From assembly GCA_020346605.1 (NCBI GenBank), contig CP070784.1, positions 2,008,105-2,072,104 on the forward strand: DNA of 64,000 nucleotides, read 5' to 3'. Below, piece by piece: positions 29,154 through 33,805 of the stretch; the first letter of the stretch is position 1; each line of letters opens with the position of its first letter. The position numbers and the translations under genes are program-made. The stretch is from Candidatus Bathyarchaeota archaeon. Lineage in GTDB: Archaea > Thermoproteota > Bathyarchaeia > TCS64. The notes under the pieces are model-generated. The model searched no databases and had not been told where the DNA came from. It worked only from the letters and a program-made list of their open reading frames with translations.

Positions 29154-29816
29154 TTGGAGAAGAGCCTTCTGGCGATCATCGCTCACCCAGACGATGAGAC
29201 ATTCGGCTGCGGAGGAACCCTCGCGCTCCACGCGGAGAAAGGCTACAGCGCAGGGGTGCTCTCCCTCACGTGCTCGGAAGACGAGAGGCGGCGCGAGCTG
29301 AACGAAGCCGTTGAAGTCCTCGGCCTAGATGAGCCCATCGTCTTCGACGAGAGGACCCTCAGCCCCGGCTCCGGCCTGATCCGACGGATCTCCGACGTGA
29401 TCGTCGAGCACAGACCCGAGATCGTCTTCACCCACCTCCCGATGGACTACCACAGGGAGCACAGGGTCGCTCACAACCTCGTCGTGGAGGCAGTCGAGTG
29501 GGCGGCCCACACCACGGCCTACGAGGAGCCGTGGCAGGTGAGGAGGCTGCTGCTGGTTGAGGTGAACACCCTCATACCGTTGCCCCACGTCCTCGTAGAC
29601 ATCTCGGACGTCTACGAGAGGAAGGCGGAGGCTATAAGGCGGTACGCCACGCAGGTCGCCAAGTTTGACTGAGGGTACTACCAGAGGTTCGACAGGAGCA
29701 AGGCGGAGCTCAGGGGGGTGCAGGGGAATTGCCGTTTCGCCGAGGCGTTCCTCGAGGAGCCTCTGGCACGGAACGGCCCCTTCTACGAGGTAAAAGCCAC
29801 CAAGAGCCTTCTCTGA
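29154..29816 (+). pseudogene. PIG-L/LmbE-family deacetylase (BshB-like) interrupted by in-frame TGA at 29670-29672
   Basis: N-terminal AHPDDETFGCGGT and HREH motifs. The ORF stops after AKFD, but the same frame continues as GYYQRFDRSKAELRGVQGNCRFAEAFLEE, which contains the family's C-terminal (Y/F)AEAF motif. Total length would be about 220 aa. Confidence 0.7.
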
Positions 29817-29891
29817 TTTTGCTTTCTTGGAAGTTCCGAGAAAATCTTTAAACCCAACATACTGGTTGAATACACCGACAGGTGGAGCCCA

Positions 29892-30875: not shown

Positions 30876-32681
30876 TTGAAAGGTTTTTATTACGTTCCGG
30901 CTTTGATTAGCAGAACAGGGCAATCAATCGGGGTTAAATTGACGGAGAACACGAATCCACCAGCCCACGAACTCTACTCCAGCCACGTCGAGGGAGTGGA
31001 AGGCTCCAAGGTCGCCCCCAGGCTCTGGGGAGACATCCCCACCACGATGAGGGAGGCACACAGGCTCCTCTTGAAGAAGAGGGGAGAATATGGGGCCGCG
31101 CCCGACGCCCTCGAGGAGCTCAAGAGGGAGATGAAGGGCAACCTCAGGAGAATGGGGGTCCTGACGTCCAAGGTCGAGGAAGGCATCGACCGCATGGATG
31201 GGGGCGTCGTGGAGACAGGGCAGCAGCCCTATTGCCTTGGCGGCTCCAGCCTCATCCTCAACAAGATCGCCTATATCCACAGCCTCAGCGAATTGTGCGA
31301 CGGGGACCTCACACCACTGTTCTACGTCGCAGACTACGACGGCGTCCAGCCCGAGCTGCTCAACACGAGGCTGCCCAGCCCCTCCCCCAGGGGGCTCCTG
31401 ATCACGTACCCTACCGGCCCGGAGGAGACCGACGTCCCCATCTACAGGGTCCCGAACCCCGACGAGGACTGGCTGAGGAGTACGCTGGAGAGGATCGAGG
31501 GGAGCTACAAGGGCATCCTGGGAGATGTTGATGGGGGCGTCCGGTCCAGGACGCTTCTGAACCTCGCCCACTGTTTCACCGTGCTGAGAAACTCGTATCA
31601 CTCGACGGAGAACGTCTCGGACTGGTCCACCAAGACGATCGGCTCGGTCGTCAACCTCGAATCCGACCTCGGGGTCCCCATCTACCCATTCTCCATGCCC
31701 GGCACCCGCCGCCTCTTCCAAGGGGGTTACGAGCTGCTCCTTGCCGAGTCGAACCGGAGTAGATTCGTCGAGGCCTCCAACGATGCGTGCGGACTGGTGG
31801 AGGACTCCGGGTATCGGAGCCAGATAGGACGGCGGTCCGAGGACTACGTGCCCTTCTTCTTGGAGTGCCCGACCCCTGGCTGCAAAGGCAGGAGGGTTGA
31901 GCTGAAGTACCGCAGAGACCCGGGCTCCGCCAGCGCATCCGTCTCGGGGAAGTGCCCCCGTTGCGGCGAGGTCCACGAGTTTTCCTTCGACGCCAGCAGC
32001 CCCGACCTCACTGAGATCGTCGGCATGATCAGCCCAAGGGTCGACTCGCGGCAGGTCATCGTGGACTCGGTGATCCCCGTGCTGGCCCACGTGGGCGGCC
32101 CGGGGGAGACGAGCTACTACGCTGAGGTGATCCCTGCGGCGAAGGCGTTGGGGATACCGTTCCCCGTCTACCTCAGGTACAACAGGACTTTCTATAACAC
32201 CCCCTGGAATGCGGCCCTTGCGGAGAGGATCAGGGAGAGAAGCCATCCTACCATCGCCGGTGAGGGGCTGTTCTCCGCATTGAGCGGGTGGGTGGACGCC
32301 CGGAACGCCGGCGACGGGGAGAAGCTCAGGGGAGCCCATTCGGATATCAAGGGCTCCATCGAGGCCTCATACAGTGGACTACTCAACGCCCTGCAGTCCC
32401 TTCAGTCGGAGATCGACTCGATAAAGCGGAGACTGAGCGAGTCAGGAGACAGGCAGCCCCTGATAGCAGAGATGCGGGGCAAGCAGGACGAGGCTAGGCT
32501 CATCGAGCACTACCTGTCCATGGCCTTCGGCCGATTCAGCCCGGAGAAGTTCGGTCAGGAGGTGAACTGGGCCTGGCTGGACCTGGCGGCGGCCTCGGGG
32601 CTCGGGGACGTCATGGGGGTCTTCCTGCGCGAATACAATGAGAACACGCCGAACTCGTCGATGTTCTACATCAACCTCTAG
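30876..32681 (+). CDS. bshC: BshC-like protein (putative bacillithiol cysteine-adding enzyme) with Zn-ribbon insert
   Basis: 601 aa. The core VETGQQPYCLGGSSLILNKIAYIHSL...PLFYVADYDGVQPE matches the GGQQ...(W/Y)VAxxDHD region I recognise from BshC. The start is uncertain: TTG 30876 or TTG 30939, which lies downstream of a TTTTTATTA box. Confidence 0.65.
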   Translation: MKGFYYVPALISRTGQSIGVKLTENTNPPAHELYSSHVEGVEGSKVAPRLWGDIPTTMREAHRLLLKKRGEYGAAPDALEELKREMKGNLRRMGVLTSKVEEGIDRMDGGVVETGQQPYCLGGSSLILNKIAYIHSLSELCDGDLTPLFYVADYDGVQPELLNTRLPSPSPRGLLITYPTGPEETDVPIYRVPNPDEDWLRSTLERIEGSYKGILGDVDGGVRSRTLLNLAHCFTVLRNSYHSTENVSDWSTKTIGSVVNLESDLGVPIYPFSMPGTRRLFQGGYELLLAESNRSRFVEASNDACGLVEDSGYRSQIGRRSEDYVPFFLECPTPGCKGRRVELKYRRDPGSASASVSGKCPRCGEVHEFSFDASSPDLTEIVGMISPRVDSRQVIVDSVIPVLAHVGGPGETSYYAEVIPAAKALGIPFPVYLRYNRTFYNTPWNAALAERIRERSHPTIAGEGLFSALSGWVDARNAGDGEKLRGAHSDIKGSIEASYSGLLNALQSLQSEIDSIKRRLSESGDRQPLIAEMRGKQDEARLIEHYLSMAFGRFSPEKFGQEVNWAWLDLAAASGLGDVMGVFLREYNENTPNSSMFYINL

Positions 32682-33805
32682 CCCCGGACGACCTTCTCGT
32701 AAATCTCCTCGTACTGGCTGAGGACCCTTTCAGAGGTGTACCTCTCCAGCACCGTCCTGCGCGCAGCCTCGCCCAGCCTCCTCCTGAGGGCTCCGTCCTC
32801 GCTGAGCTCAAGAATCCTCTGGGCGATGGCCTCCGGGTGCTTCGGCTGGACCAGGAATCCGTTGACGCCGTCCTCGACGATCTCGGGAATCCCGCCGACC
32901 TCCGTGGCGACCACTGGGAGTCCGCAGCTCATCCCCTCCAGCAGGGTGAGGGGAGCACTCTCAGTCTCCGAGCAGAGGACCACGGCGTCGCTGCACCTGA
33001 GGAGGTTTGCGACGTCGCTCCTGTAGCCGGTGAGTTGTACGTTTCCGCGGAGGTCCAGGTGGTCGATGAGAGCCTCAAGCTTGTGCCTCTCGGGGCCGTC
33101 CCCGACGAGCATCAGGCGGACCCCGGGCTCCTTCTTCGCAACGATGTTAATCGCGTAGATGAGGTCCTGCACACGCTTCACCGGCCTGAAGTTGGAGATG
33201 TGGGCGACGACGATGTCCTTCTCGGCATCCCTCTCCAAGACCTCGCAGGGCGCCGGGCTGAAGGTCTCCGAGTCAACAAAGTTGGGTATGACGGCGATCT
33301 CCTTGGTGATGCCGAGGCGCTCGTAGGCCTCCTCCGCCATGAACTTGGAGACCGCCGTGACGGCGTCGGCCTCCTCCACCGAGTGAGTGTTCACGGGCAG
33401 GTAGGACCTGTCGCTGCCGAGGATCGTCACGTCGGAGCCGTGAAGCGTCACCACGTAGGGCACCCCCGTTATTCCCCTGGCCAGCAGGGCGGCGGTGGCG
33501 TGGGGGATGCTGTAGTGGACGTGGAGCAGGTCCAGCCCCTGCTGCTGGGAGACCCTGAACATCTCCGAGCCGAGGGCGATGGTGTAGGGCGGGTACTTGA
33601 AGAGGGGGTACTCGACGACCGTGACGAGGTGGACGTAGACGTTGTCGTGGTCGACCCCCTGGATCGCCACTGGCCTCTCGTACGTGATGAAGTGGACCTC
33701 GTGGCCCCTCCCAGCCAGCTCGACGCCCAGCCTGGTGGCGAGGATTCCGCTCCCTCCGACTGTGGGGTAGCAGGTGATGCCTATCTTCAACTTTGTCGAA
33801 CTCAA
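32678..33805 (-). CDS. bshA: N-acetyl-alpha-D-glucosaminyl L-malate synthase BshA (GT4)
   Basis: 375 aa. N-terminus [37 protein letters not shown] and FKYPPY are hallmarks of BshA. A GT4 EX7E region ([18 protein letters not shown]) is present. It shares a CTAG stop overlap with bshC. Confidence 0.8.
   Translation of the reverse strand: [375 protein letters not shown]

What the first reader, a model, noticed from the sequence alone, without database searches (positions are those of the whole stretch)
29154..33805. Complete bacillithiol-type thiol biosynthesis set (bshB-like, bshC-like, bshA) on a contig with archaeal hallmarks
Four adjacent genes make up the set. The first is a PIG-L deacetylase (AHPDDETFGCGGT...FAEAF) and the second an amidohydrolase_2 gene. 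The third is a 601-aa protein whose core VETGQQPYCLGGSSLILNKIAYIHSL...PLFYVADYDGVQPE matches the signature region of the BshC cysteine-adding enzyme. The fourth is a convergent GT4 whose N-terminus [31 protein letters not shown]...FKYPPY is the hallmark of BshA. The bshC and bshA stops share a single CTAG.

Bacillithiol is established mainly for Firmicutes, Deinococcus-Thermus and Chlorobi/Bacteroidetes-type bacteria. This contig instead shows TATA/leaderless promoters, oligo-T terminators and a PGF-CTERM protein. An archaeon making BSH or a derivative would be a noteworthy extension of low-molecular-weight thiol biology. Supporting genes in the window are two DinB/YfiT-family genes, a second PIG-L gene (58521) and a TlpA-like redoxin.
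Basis: partly seen in the sequence, partly recalled or inferred. Interest (0 to 1): 0.75.

Follow-up and report, generated by a model that had tools for sequence, protein, structure and literature searches.

The report
Bacillithiol-type thiol genes in a Bathyarchaeon
An uncultured archaeon (class Bathyarchaeia) carries the three-gene set that bacteria use to make the protective thiol bacillithiol; the set is conserved across two archaeal lineages, but databases and a 2020 review had already flagged such genes, and one gene here carries a premature stop.

Summary
The four genes are present at the stated coordinates, and the contig is archaeal (Bathyarchaeia).

- **BshA:** the GT4 gene is a bona fide BshA. 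It scores 418.6 bits against the TIGR03999 cutoff of 273.7 and is 45% identical to Bacillus anthracis BshA.
- **BshC:** the 580-aa protein (the 601-aa ORF starts too early) fails the BshC equivalog cutoff, 39 bits against 265.8. It is still a full-length BshC homologue: hhalign gives E = 7.7e-39, and the AlphaFold model matches only BshC (PDB 4wbd) with TM 0.63/0.70. It belongs to a clade found in Bathyarchaeia and Asgard archaea that carries a four-cysteine zinc ribbon canonical BshC lacks.
- **Synteny:** where flanks allow, 26/26 Bathyarchaeia loci and 17/17 Asgard loci have bshA next to bshC, and 25/26 and 17/17 also have the PIG-L gene. A DinB_2 gene (22/26) and the Amidohydro_2 gene (19/26) are frequent Bathyarchaeia additions.

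"Complete" is overstated. The PIG-L gene has an in-frame TGA at 29670-29672 where relatives have Trp, and it removes conserved C-terminal motifs.

NCBI already names these proteins BshC, and a 2020 review noted archaeal BshA/BshC hits. A 2025 RefSeq survey found none in archaea. No thiol has been measured. I rate it a new member of a known kind, of moderate interest.

The parts
26259..26738 (+). DinB_2-family protein, a candidate thiol S-transferase of the DinB/YfiT type. Its orthologue lies directly downstream of bshA in most Bathyarchaeia loci. Here it lies 2.4 kb upstream of the PIG-L gene, separated from it by two APH-family kinase genes.
   Evidence: Pfam PF12867 scores 45.7 bits, and PF04978 (mycothiol S-transferase) 30.1 bits. 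Orthologues at 45-75% identity lie next to bshA in 22/26 well-flanked Bathyarchaeia loci.
29154..29816 (+). PIG-L family deacetylase, BshB-like. It is predicted to convert GlcNAc-malate to GlcN-malate. The gene is interrupted by an in-frame stop codon.
   Evidence: PF02585 scores 75.3 bits. The best NCBIfam hit is BshB1 (TIGR04001) at 97.7 bits against a cutoff of 182.5. The metal-binding motif AHPDDE and the DYHREH motif lie before the stop. The gene sits upstream of bshC in 25/26 Bathyarchaeia loci and beside bshA in 17/17 Asgard loci.
29670..29672 (+). In-frame TGA at codon 173 of the PIG-L gene. It replaces a Trp codon (TGG to TGA) and is either a nonsense mutation or a base-call error.
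   Evidence: Direct reading. The 91%-identical relative L001 has TGG and L003 has Trp at this position. Third-position GC stays high after the stop, 0.88. The downstream ELRGxQ and AEAF motifs are at least 95% conserved in 65 orthologues. TGA ends 27 of 60 ORFs, so TGA is not recoded genome-wide.
29892..30836 (+). Amidohydro_2 (ACMSD-type TIM-barrel metalloenzyme) inserted between the PIG-L gene and bshC. It is a conserved accessory gene whose role is unresolved.
   Evidence: PF04909 scores 133.8 bits, with no NCBIfam hit. It occupies this position in 19/26 well-flanked Bathyarchaeia loci at 62-96% identity, and is absent from one Bathyarchaeia subgroup and from the Asgard loci. HxH, His172, His210 and Asp270 are invariant. 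The model has pLDDT 83.6. Its nearest folds are ACMSD-type decarboxylases and hydrolases at TM 0.6-0.66, which gives no specific function.
30939..32681 (+). Archaeal-type BshC homologue of 580 aa, the predicted cysteine-adding enzyme. The mechanical ORF starts at 30876.
   Evidence: PF10079 scores 34.5 against 27. TIGR03998 scores 39.3 against 265.8. hhalign against canonical BshC gives probability 99.96%, E = 7.7e-39 over 490 columns. The AF2 model (pLDDT 85.7) has one significant PDB match, BshC 4wbd, with E = 4.5e-15 and TM 0.63/0.70. More than 120 homologues at 56-91% identity were found, and the named ones are almost all from Bathyarchaeota MAGs (one is labelled Patescibacteria).
31866..31964 (+). 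Four-cysteine zinc-ribbon segment inside BshC (C331, C336, C360, C363 in 601-aa numbering). It is specific to the archaeal clade.
   Evidence: All four Cys are invariant in 27 Bathyarchaeia sequences, and three remain invariant when Asgard sequences are added. The segment is modelled as beta strands 327-372. It aligns to a cysteine-free stretch of canonical BshC. Local Foldseek matches include the Zn-ribbon subunit of RNA polymerase I, 4c2m_I.
32678..33805 (-). [quoted passage not shown] It is convergent with bshC, and the two stop codons share the CTAG at 32678-32681.
   Evidence: TIGR03999 scores 418.6 bits against a cutoff of 273.7, full length. The best PDB hits are BshA structures 3mbo, 2jjm and 5d00. 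It is 45% identical to B. anthracis BshA over 375 residues. The CTAG overlap was read directly.
33888..34409 (-). NUDIX hydrolase downstream of bshA. It neighbours the cluster in some Bathyarchaeia loci, and any role in the pathway is uncertain.
   Evidence: PF00293 scores 72.3 bits. The nearest NCBIfam families are NudE and YffH/AdpP, all below cutoff. An orthologue lies beside the cluster in L002, L003/L006, L004, L008 and L011.

Best explanation
This is the Bathyarchaeia version of the bacillithiol (BSH) biosynthesis locus.

**Predicted pathway** (inferred from homology to the Bacillus enzymes)
1. BshA (32678-33805, minus strand) joins UDP-GlcNAc to L-malate, giving GlcNAc-malate.
2. The PIG-L deacetylase (29154-29816) removes the acetyl group, giving GlcN-malate.
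3. The archaeal-type BshC (30939-32681) adds cysteine to the free amine, giving BSH or a close derivative.
4. The DinB_2 protein (26259-26738) is the likely thiol S-transferase that uses the product.

**What is shown**
- The family identity of each gene.
- The archaeal origin of the contig.
- The tight, repeated linkage of the three core genes in two archaeal lineages.

**What is inferred**
- The chemistry of each step.
- The identity of the product.

In this particular sequence the deacetylase gene carries a TGG-to-TGA change that would truncate the protein. Either the base is wrong or belongs to a minority variant, or step 2 depends here on another hydrolase. The Amidohydro_2 enzyme between the PIG-L gene and bshC is a conserved accessory in many Bathyarchaeia, and its role is not established.
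For: - **BshA.** It passes the equivalog model, 418.6 bits against 273.7. It aligns end to end with crystallised BshA enzymes at 45% identity.
- **BshC, sequence.** TIGR03998 is the only NCBIfam family hit by the window protein and by all 27 archaeal relatives. Pfam PF10079 is above its gathering score. hhalign against 21 canonical BshC sequences, all of which hit TIGR03998, gives probability 99.96% and E = 7.7e-39 over 490 columns. The GQQP...GG...K, (F/Y)xADxD, SPxVxxR...GPGE.xY and GQE blocks are all shared.
- **BshC, fold.** The AF2 model (pLDDT 85.7, pTM 0.87) has BshC 4wbd as its only significant PDB match.
- **Linkage.** For loci with at least 2.5 kb of flank on both sides, Bathyarchaeia show bshA in 26/26, PIG-L in 25/26 and DinB_2 in 22/26. 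Asgard loci show bshA and PIG-L in 17/17, in a different gene order (PIG-L divergent, then bshA and bshC co-directional). The linkage is therefore maintained independently of the arrangement. Co-occurrence and occasional co-localisation with bshA is the criterion by which bacterial bshC was first identified (PMC5790435).
- **Redox partner.** In 21 Bathyarchaeia loci a Thioredoxin_9 protein with a WCGDC motif sits between bshC and bshA, which fits a thiol-redox function.
- **Archaeal origin.**
Against: - The BshC-like protein is only about 14-20% identical to canonical BshC and scores far below the equivalog cutoff, so it could have a different substrate.
- Even the canonical BshC reaction has never been reconstituted, and its activated-cysteine donor is unknown (PMC5790435).
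- The PIG-L protein is below both BshB cutoffs, and here it is cut by a stop codon before motifs that are at least 95% conserved.
- No BSH disulfide reductase (Bdr/YpdA) or bacilliredoxin homologue appeared among the window ORFs scanned.
- The malate-binding residues of BshA were not checked, because the structural papers were not available.
Confidence: 0.72

Rival explanations
1. The cluster makes a related but different glycoside. BshA and the PIG-L enzyme still build a GlcN-acid scaffold. The divergent, zinc-ribbon-bearing BshC, possibly together with the Amidohydro_2 enzyme, then attaches or remodels something other than plain cysteine. The product could be a modified BSH or a non-thiol solute.
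For: - The BshC clade fails the equivalog threshold in all 27 members tested and carries an insertion that canonical BshC lacks.
- An ACMSD-type enzyme, from a superfamily of decarboxylases, hydratases and lactonases, is wedged between the PIG-L gene and bshC in 19/26 Bathyarchaeia loci. It is more conserved (62-96%) than BshC (46-65% in the GTDB genomes).
- N-methyl-BSH shows that derivatives of BSH exist in nature (PMC12719100).
Against: - BshA is a clear equivalog of the malate-specific enzyme.
- The four conserved BshC sequence blocks are retained.
- Thioredoxin-fold and DinB_2 genes in the cluster point to thiol chemistry.
- Asgard loci and one Bathyarchaeia subgroup lack the Amidohydro_2 gene, so it is not required for the core pathway.
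Confidence: 0.17
2. In this organism the pathway is broken. The nonsense codon in the PIG-L gene is real, the locus is decaying, and no thiol is made from it.
For: - There is an in-frame TGA at a conserved Trp, and conserved C-terminal motifs are lost.
- A second gene in the window, the ADI/DDAH-like gene at 53012-53896, also has a Trp codon turned into a stop (TGG to TAG at 53441-53443).
Against: - The codons after the stop keep full coding signature (GC3 0.88), and the other three genes are intact.
- Both stops are single G-to-A changes in one consensus sequence, so base-call error or a minority allele cannot be excluded.
- B. subtilis tolerates loss of BshB1 because a second deacetylase substitutes (PMC5790435). 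This window encodes a second PIG-L protein and several amidohydrolases.
Confidence: 0.08
3. The contig is bacterial, or a mis-binned bacterial fragment, which would make this an ordinary bacterial bsh cluster.
For: - Four relatives sit in MAGs labelled Patescibacteria, Krumholzibacteriaceae or Desulfaltia.
- No rRNA, tRNA or ribosomal-protein gene lies in the window itself.
Against: - Those four contigs are short (2-8 kb) and come from one MAG series. Their genes are about 55-85% identical to the window's cluster genes and follow the Bathyarchaeia gene order.
- The window is collinear with five Bathyarchaeota contigs over more than 30 kb.
- The same cluster lies beside L21e, Rpb4, L13e and eIF-1A genes on a closed Bathyarchaeota chromosome.
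- A PGF-CTERM tail is present.
- Every other named relative of this BshC clade, down to about 25% identity, is from Bathyarchaeia or an Asgard lineage.
Confidence: 0.02

Closest known systems
Bacillithiol biosynthesis pathway BshA/BshB/BshC of Bacillota, Bacteroidota, Chlorobiota and Deinococcota
   Same: - The same three enzyme families are present.
- BshA is an equivalog by TIGR03999 and 45% identical to B. anthracis BshA.
- The deacetylase is a PIG-L enzyme whose best match is BshB1.
- BshC has the same fold and conserved motif blocks as B. subtilis BshC (4wbd).
- A DinB-family gene accompanies the set, as BstA/YfiT does in Bacillus.
   Different: - The host is an archaeon.
- All three core genes, plus DinB_2, are usually clustered. 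In B. subtilis, bshC is in a separate operon from bshA-bshB1 (PMC5790435).
- BshC is only about 14-20% identical to the canonical enzyme, fails TIGR03998 and carries a four-cysteine zinc ribbon.
- Extra conserved genes are present: Amidohydro_2, and in other Bathyarchaeia a Thioredoxin_9 gene.
- No Bdr/YpdA or DUF1094 bacilliredoxin was seen in the window.
Asgard-archaeal bshA-bshC loci (Thor-, Prometh-, Heimdall-, Odin- and Hodarchaeales), noted by Rawat & Maupin-Furlow 2020
   Same: - They share the same zinc-ribbon BshC clade, at 25-37% identity to the window protein.
- They show the same linkage to BshA and a PIG-L deacetylase.
   Different: - The gene order differs: PIG-L divergent, then bshA and bshC co-directional.
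- The loci examined have no Amidohydro_2 and no adjacent DinB_2 gene.
- The first BshC motif reads GHQP instead of GQQP.
Mycothiol biosynthesis (MshA/MshB/MshC) of Actinobacteria
   Same: The logic is the same: a GT4 glycosyltransferase, then a PIG-L deacetylase, then addition of cysteine to a glucosamine scaffold.
   Different: - The MshA, MshB and Mca models score only 79.5, 44 and 33 bits, far below their cutoffs.
- MshC appears only as a non-significant fold match, E = 0.39.
- The cysteine-adding enzyme here belongs to the BshC family, not the MshC/CysRS family.

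Membership tests
[quoted passage not shown] | Whole-protein score at or above the curated equivalog cutoff | tested here: met
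   It scores 418.6 bits against 273.7, covering model positions 1-374 of 375. The next family scores 165 bits.
[quoted passage not shown] | GT-B/GT4 two-domain architecture and full-length similarity to BshA crystal structures | tested here: met
   Glyco_transf_4 and Glycos_transf_1 domains are both present. The top PDB hits are 3mbo, 2jjm, 5d00 and 6n1x. It is 45% identical to B. anthracis BshA over 375 residues.
[quoted passage not shown] | Conservation of the L-malate-binding residues, or L-malate acceptor activity | not tested
   The structural papers (PMC2943542, PMC5954418) are not held. Activity needs an enzyme assay.
BshC (TIGR03998 / Pfam PF10079) | Score at or above the TIGR03998 equivalog cutoff | tested here: not met
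   It scores 39.3 bits against 265.8, and only residues 385-519 match. All 27 archaeal-clade members hit this model alone, with a best E-value of 1.6e-21, which is far below the cutoff.
BshC (TIGR03998 / Pfam PF10079) | Pfam PF10079 (Rossmann-like BshC domain) above its gathering score | tested here: met
   It scores 34.5 bits against 27. PF10079 is precomputed on every homologue listed.
BshC (TIGR03998 / Pfam PF10079) | Full-length homology and shared conserved motif blocks with canonical BshC | tested here: met
   hhalign of A3 against A4 gives probability 99.96%, E = 7.7e-39 over 490 aligned columns. The GQQP..GG..K, ADxD, SPxV.R...GPGE.xY and GQE blocks all align. A PDB profile search finds 4wbd through the same two motifs.
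BshC (TIGR03998 / Pfam PF10079) | BshC fold: Rossmann-like core plus a C-terminal helical or coiled-coil region | tested here: met
   The AF2 model has pLDDT 85.7 and pTM 0.87. Foldseek finds 4wbd with E = 4.5e-15 and TM 0.63/0.70 over 605 columns. The next hit has E = 0.02.
BshC (TIGR03998 / Pfam PF10079) | Genomic co-occurrence or co-localisation with bshA, the criterion by which bshC was discovered | tested here: met
   bshA is adjacent in 26/26 Bathyarchaeia loci and 17/17 Asgard loci with adequate flanks. The criterion is described in PMC5790435.
BshC (TIGR03998 / Pfam PF10079) | Addition of cysteine to GlcN-malate | not testable with these tools
   This is a biochemical question. The reaction has not been reconstituted even for B. 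subtilis BshC (PMC5790435).
BshB (TIGR04001 BshB1 / TIGR04000 BshB2) | Score at or above the equivalog cutoff | tested here: not met
   BshB1 scores 97.7 against 182.5 and BshB2 59 against 195, with or without read-through of the stop. BshB1 is nonetheless the best-scoring family.
BshB (TIGR04001 BshB1 / TIGR04000 BshB2) | PIG-L domain with the metal-binding and catalytic motif (AHPDDE plus downstream His) | tested here: met
   PF02585 scores 75.3 against 28.2. AHPDDETFGCGG and DYHREH were read directly.
BshB (TIGR04001 BshB1 / TIGR04000 BshB2) | Intact open reading frame | tested here: not met
   There is an in-frame TGA at 29670-29672. Relatives have TGG/Trp at that codon, and the lost tail carries motifs that are at least 95% conserved.
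DinB/YfiT-type thiol S-transferase (BstA-like) | DinB_2 fold family membership and linkage to the thiol-biosynthesis genes | tested here: met
   PF12867 and PF04978 both hit. An orthologue is adjacent to bshA in 22/26 Bathyarchaeia loci. Transferase activity and thiol specificity were not tested.
Archaeal (Bathyarchaeia) origin of the contig | Collinearity with genomes assigned to the taxon, plus archaeal hallmarks | tested here: met
   21 window genes have orthologues in Bathyarchaeota contigs (most at 60-81% identity), largely in the same order. The cluster lies beside archaeal informational genes on CP070640.1. A PGF-CTERM tail is present. No rRNA or tRNA gene is in the window.

The most novel reading that the evidence does not exclude
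Bathyarchaeia and Asgard archaea make bacillithiol, or a derivative of it, with an archaeal-type BshC. That enzyme carries a zinc ribbon and, in many Bathyarchaeia, is paired with a highly conserved ACMSD-type amidohydrolase. The extra domain and the partner gene would then mark the cofactor, substrate-activation step or partner protein whose absence has kept the BshC reaction from being reconstituted in vitro since bshC was identified in 2010. This would give a new route to that open biochemical problem. It would also make BSH a thiol shared by Bacteria and Archaea.
Probability: 0.2. Interest if true: 0.7.

Novelty: new member of a known kind. Interest (0 to 1): 0.42.

Why it matters
Low-molecular-weight thiols set the redox chemistry of a cell. 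No BSH-type thiol has ever been measured in an archaeon (PMC7278568). A 2025 RefSeq BLAST survey concluded that no archaea carry the pathway (PMC12719100).

The genome scan here found 136 loci that encode this BshC type among GTDB species-representative genomes. The 80 best were all archaeal apart from four short, probably mis-binned contigs. Where flanks allow, bshC sits beside bshA in 43 of 43 loci and the PIG-L gene is also present in 42 of 43. Bathyarchaeia are abundant in anoxic sediments, and Asgard archaea are the closest known relatives of eukaryotes. A shared cytoplasmic thiol in these groups would bear on their stress physiology, on metal and arsenic handling (an ArsM gene lies in the same window), and on how far redox cofactors have moved between the domains.

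The divergent BshC and its conserved neighbours also give biochemists new material for a reaction that remains undefined. The prediction itself is not new, however. Database annotation and a review had already anticipated it.

Tried and rejected
- **RNA markers.** I looked for rRNA, tRNA or other RNA markers to assign taxonomy and found none in the window. Taxonomy rests on protein homologues and synteny.
- **TGA recoding.** TGA read as Trp, Gly or Sec is rejected. TGA ends 27 of 60 ORFs, orthologues have Trp at the site, and Rfam gave no hits at all. The second in-frame stop is a TAG, also at a Trp position, which points to G-to-A substitution or error rather than a coding rule.
- **Frameshift in the PIG-L gene.** Rejected, because the downstream part is in the same frame.
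- **Mycothiol pathway.** Rejected, because the MshA, MshB and Mca models score far below their cutoffs and the cysteine-adding enzyme is not MshC-like.
- **A specific function for the Amidohydro_2 gene.** NCBIfam gave no hit. PDB sequence and fold searches returned only generic ACMSD-superfamily decarboxylases and hydrolases at 15-22% identity. The question is unresolved.
- **BshA malate-site and BshC active-site residues.** I tried to read the three structural papers (PMC2943542, PMC5954418, PMC4303302) and none is held.
- **Other BSH-system genes.** I looked for an N-methyltransferase, Bdr/YpdA or bacilliredoxins among about 55 window ORFs. The methyltransferase at 50251 is ArsM, the one at 3208 is unassigned, and no Bdr or Brx was seen. 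NCBIfam, which holds the specific Bdr/Brx models, was run on only about 24 ORFs.
- **BshA phylogeny.** No tree was built. The listed homologues would all have been close Bathyarchaeia sequences, so the equivalog model was used instead.

Full report
**What is in the sequence**

The region holds four real genes with strong coding signature: third-position GC is about 0.85 in genes across the window.

| Gene | Coordinates | Strand |
|---|---|---|
| PIG-L | 29154-29816 | + |
| Amidohydro_2 | 29892-30836 | + |
| BshC-like ORF | 30876-32681 | + |
| GT4 | 32678-33805 | - |

The two convergent genes end in a shared CTAG at 32678-32681.

First, the PIG-L gene is interrupted by an in-frame TGA at 29670-29672, so the ORF is 172 codons and not about 220. 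A 91%-identical metagenomic relative (L001) has TGG at this codon, and a 66%-identical orthologue has Trp. The 47 codons after the stop keep coding composition. They also carry ELRGxQ and AEAF motifs that are at least 95% conserved in 65 orthologues.

TGA ends 27 of 60 ORFs in the window, so it is not recoded. The stop is therefore a nonsense substitution or a base error.

Second, homologues of the BshC-like protein are about 580 aa long. An A/T-rich TATA-like stretch lies inside the first 21 codons of the mechanical ORF. The likely start is the TTG at 30939.

**Family tests**

- **GT4.** It passes the NCBIfam BshA equivalog model, 418.6 bits against a cutoff of 273.7, with the next family at 165 bits. 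Its best PDB matches are the BshA structures 3mbo, 2jjm and 5d00. It is 45% identical to B. anthracis BshA along its whole length.
- **PIG-L.** Its best hit is BshB1, but below cutoff at 97.7 against 182.5, with or without reading through the stop.
- **BshC-like.** It hits only TIGR03998, at 39.3 bits against 265.8 and only over residues 385-519. It passes Pfam PF10079 at 34.5 against 27.

**Is the 580-aa protein a BshC?**

A database search found more than 120 homologues at 56-91% identity. All carry PF10079, and NCBI names many of them 'bacillithiol biosynthesis BshC [Candidatus Bathyarchaeota archaeon]'. An exhaustive search of 1.84 billion cluster representatives gave only 199 clusters at E ≤ 1e-3:

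- a close Bathyarchaeia group;
- a set of full-length proteins at 25-37% identity;
- canonical 520-550-aa BshC proteins, matched only around the GPGE motif.

Every named member of the 25-37% set comes from an Asgard lineage: Thor-, Prometh-, Heimdall- and Odinarchaeota, Hodarchaeales, Ranarchaeia and Harpocratesius.

A profile of this archaeal clade was aligned to a profile of 21 canonical BshC sequences, all of which hit TIGR03998. The result was probability 99.96% and E = 7.7e-39 over 490 columns. All the conserved blocks were in register.

An AlphaFold2 model (pLDDT 85.7, pTM 0.87) has exactly one significant PDB match. That match is B. subtilis BshC 4wbd, with E = 4.5e-15, TM 0.63/0.70 and 14% identity.

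All 27 archaeal-clade members tested hit TIGR03998 and nothing else, but none comes near the cutoff.

The clade has a four-cysteine zinc ribbon (C331, C336, C360 and C363 in ORF numbering). All four Cys are invariant in Bathyarchaeia, and three stay invariant when Asgard sequences are added. The ribbon aligns to a cysteine-free stretch of canonical BshC.

I conclude that this is a genuine but deeply divergent member of the BshC family.

**Genomic context across genomes**

A scan of one genome per GTDB species found 136 loci that encode this BshC type. Of the 80 best, 54 group with Bathyarchaeia and 26 with Thor- or Promethearchaeota. Four of the 54 are short contigs in bins labelled as bacteria, and they carry Bathyarchaeia-like genes in Bathyarchaeia order.

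I searched these loci with the window's proteins by tblastn. Only loci with at least 2.5 kb on both sides of bshC were counted.

| Neighbour of bshC | Bathyarchaeia | Asgard |
|---|---|---|
| bshA | 26/26 | 17/17 |
| PIG-L | 25/26 | 17/17 |
| DinB_2 | 22/26 | not seen |
| Amidohydro_2 | 19/26 | not seen |

The gene orders differ between the two groups.

- Bathyarchaeia: PIG-L, then (Amidohydro_2), then bshC, convergent with bshA, which is followed by DinB_2.
- Asgard: PIG-L divergent from bshA, with bshA and bshC co-directional.

Because the arrangement differs, the linkage of the three core genes looks selected rather than inherited passively. Linkage to bshA is also how bacterial bshC was first discovered (PMC5790435).

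In 21 Bathyarchaeia loci a 197-aa Thioredoxin_9 protein with a WCGDC motif lies between bshC and bshA. The window has no such gene.

**Origin of the contig**

No RNA genes or informational genes lie in the window. Three other lines of evidence place it in Bathyarchaeia.

- Twenty-one of its genes have orthologues in Bathyarchaeota MAG contigs (most at 60-81% identity), largely in the same order.
- The same cluster sits next to L21e, Rpb4, L13e and eIF-1A genes on a closed Bathyarchaeota chromosome.
- The protein at 44590-46323 ends in a PGF-CTERM-type tail.

The closest BshC in the GTDB species set is only 65% identical, so the lineage has no close reference genome.

**How it most likely works**

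By homology to the Bacillus pathway (PMC5790435):

1. BshA makes GlcNAc-malate.
2. The PIG-L enzyme deacetylates it.
3. BshC adds cysteine.
4. The DinB_2 protein would use the thiol for conjugation.

Gene identities and linkage are shown. The chemistry and the product are inferred. The donor of activated cysteine is unknown even for the canonical enzyme, and its reaction has never been reconstituted.

If the stop in the PIG-L gene is real, step 2 would need another hydrolase. B. subtilis offers a precedent, with redundant BshB1 and BshB2. The window encodes a second PIG-L protein, which is attached to a GH4 glycosidase gene and so probably serves sugar catabolism. It also encodes several amidohydrolases.

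The Amidohydro_2 enzyme keeps its metal ligands. It is the best-conserved accessory gene in the cluster. Structure comparison places it only generally among ACMSD-type decarboxylases and hydrolases, and it is absent from Asgard loci and from one Bathyarchaeia subgroup. I treat it as a lineage-specific accessory of unknown role.

**Comparison with what is known, and novelty**

Rawat & Maupin-Furlow (2020, PMC7278568) reported 39 archaeal InterPro hits each for BshA and BshC, mostly in Asgard archaea. They proposed that archaea may make BSH, and they noted that BSH had not been detected in archaea. NCBI annotation already uses the BshC name for these proteins.

A 2025 paper that searched RefSeq by BLAST stated that no archaea contain BshA, BshB and BshC (PMC12719100). 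That result is understandable, given how divergent this BshC is and how few of these genomes are in RefSeq. No paper in the searchable library links bacillithiol to Bathyarchaeia in substance.

The finding is therefore a correct but anticipated prediction. I class it as a new member of a known kind. This analysis adds:

- the definition of an archaeal BshC clade with a zinc ribbon;
- the quantified two-lineage synteny;
- the accessory genes;
- the nonsense codon in this copy.

I score interest at 0.42. It would be solid and useful for archaeal redox biology, and possibly for the BshC mechanism, but a specialist would not find it very surprising.

Noticed in passing
window 53012-53896 (stop at 53441-53443): An ADI/DDAH-like gene is split by an in-frame TAG where the Bathyarchaeota orthologue (L003 17652-18575) has Trp ('GGDFV*LNEG' against 'GGDFVWLDEE'). 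Together with the TGA in the PIG-L gene, that makes two Trp codons turned into stops by G-to-A changes within 64 kb. A GC3-based scan found no other interrupted gene.
   Followed up: partly
L023 11728-12321 (-), and 20 other Bathyarchaeia loci: A 197-aa Thioredoxin_9 (PF14595) protein with a WCGDC active-site motif lies between bshC and bshA in 21 Bathyarchaeia loci, at 55-83% identity to one another. It is a candidate redox partner for the thiol. The window has no homologue.
   Followed up: partly
L002 and L005 (both CP070640.1); L053 and L057 (both CAZIAF01): A closed 1.5-Mb Bathyarchaeota chromosome carries two separate bshC-bshA pairs whose BshC proteins are 60% identical. Only one pair has the Amidohydro_2, DinB_2 and NUDIX genes beside it. 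Another MAG also has two copies.
   Followed up: partly
L001 1697-2767 (-): The 91%-identical relative of this locus has an extra gene between the Amidohydro_2 gene and bshC, which the window lacks. The gene encodes a 356-aa protein with a signal-peptide-like N-terminus and one predicted membrane helix.
   Followed up: no
window 44590-46323 (-): This 577-aa protein has no Pfam or NCBIfam hit. It ends in GIPGFPGISIALGAALATFVVTQMRHHRH, a PGF-CTERM-type archaeosortase signal.
   Followed up: partly
window 49831-51024: A PadR regulator is divergent from an arsenite methyltransferase ArsM (NF008823, 337 bits against a cutoff of 263). In related MAGs this pair lies about 2.5 kb from the bsh cluster. 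In the window, roughly 14 kb of sugar-acid catabolism genes (KDG kinase, KDPG aldolase, FGGY kinase) separate the two.
   Followed up: no
window 57231-59237: The stop codon of a GH4 glycosidase gene is immediately followed by the start of the second PIG-L gene (58518-58520, then 58521). The pairing suggests deacetylation and cleavage of an N-acetyl-sugar glycoside rather than thiol synthesis.
   Followed up: no
window 60278-61165 (+): A second Amidohydro_2 paralogue is present, about 30% identical to orthologues of the cluster's copy in related loci. It lies next to an MFS transporter gene.
   Followed up: no
L008, L024, L027, L061: Four contigs of 2-8 kb carry Bathyarchaeia-type bsh genes but sit in 'SMAG' MAGs labelled Patescibacteria, Krumholzibacteriaceae and Desulfaltia. 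They are probably binning errors in public genomes.
   Followed up: partly
window 26834-28887 (-): Two tandem APH-family phosphotransferase genes lie between the DinB_2 gene and the PIG-L gene. They have no counterpart in any of the 84 related loci, so they look like a lineage-specific insertion into the cluster.
   Followed up: no
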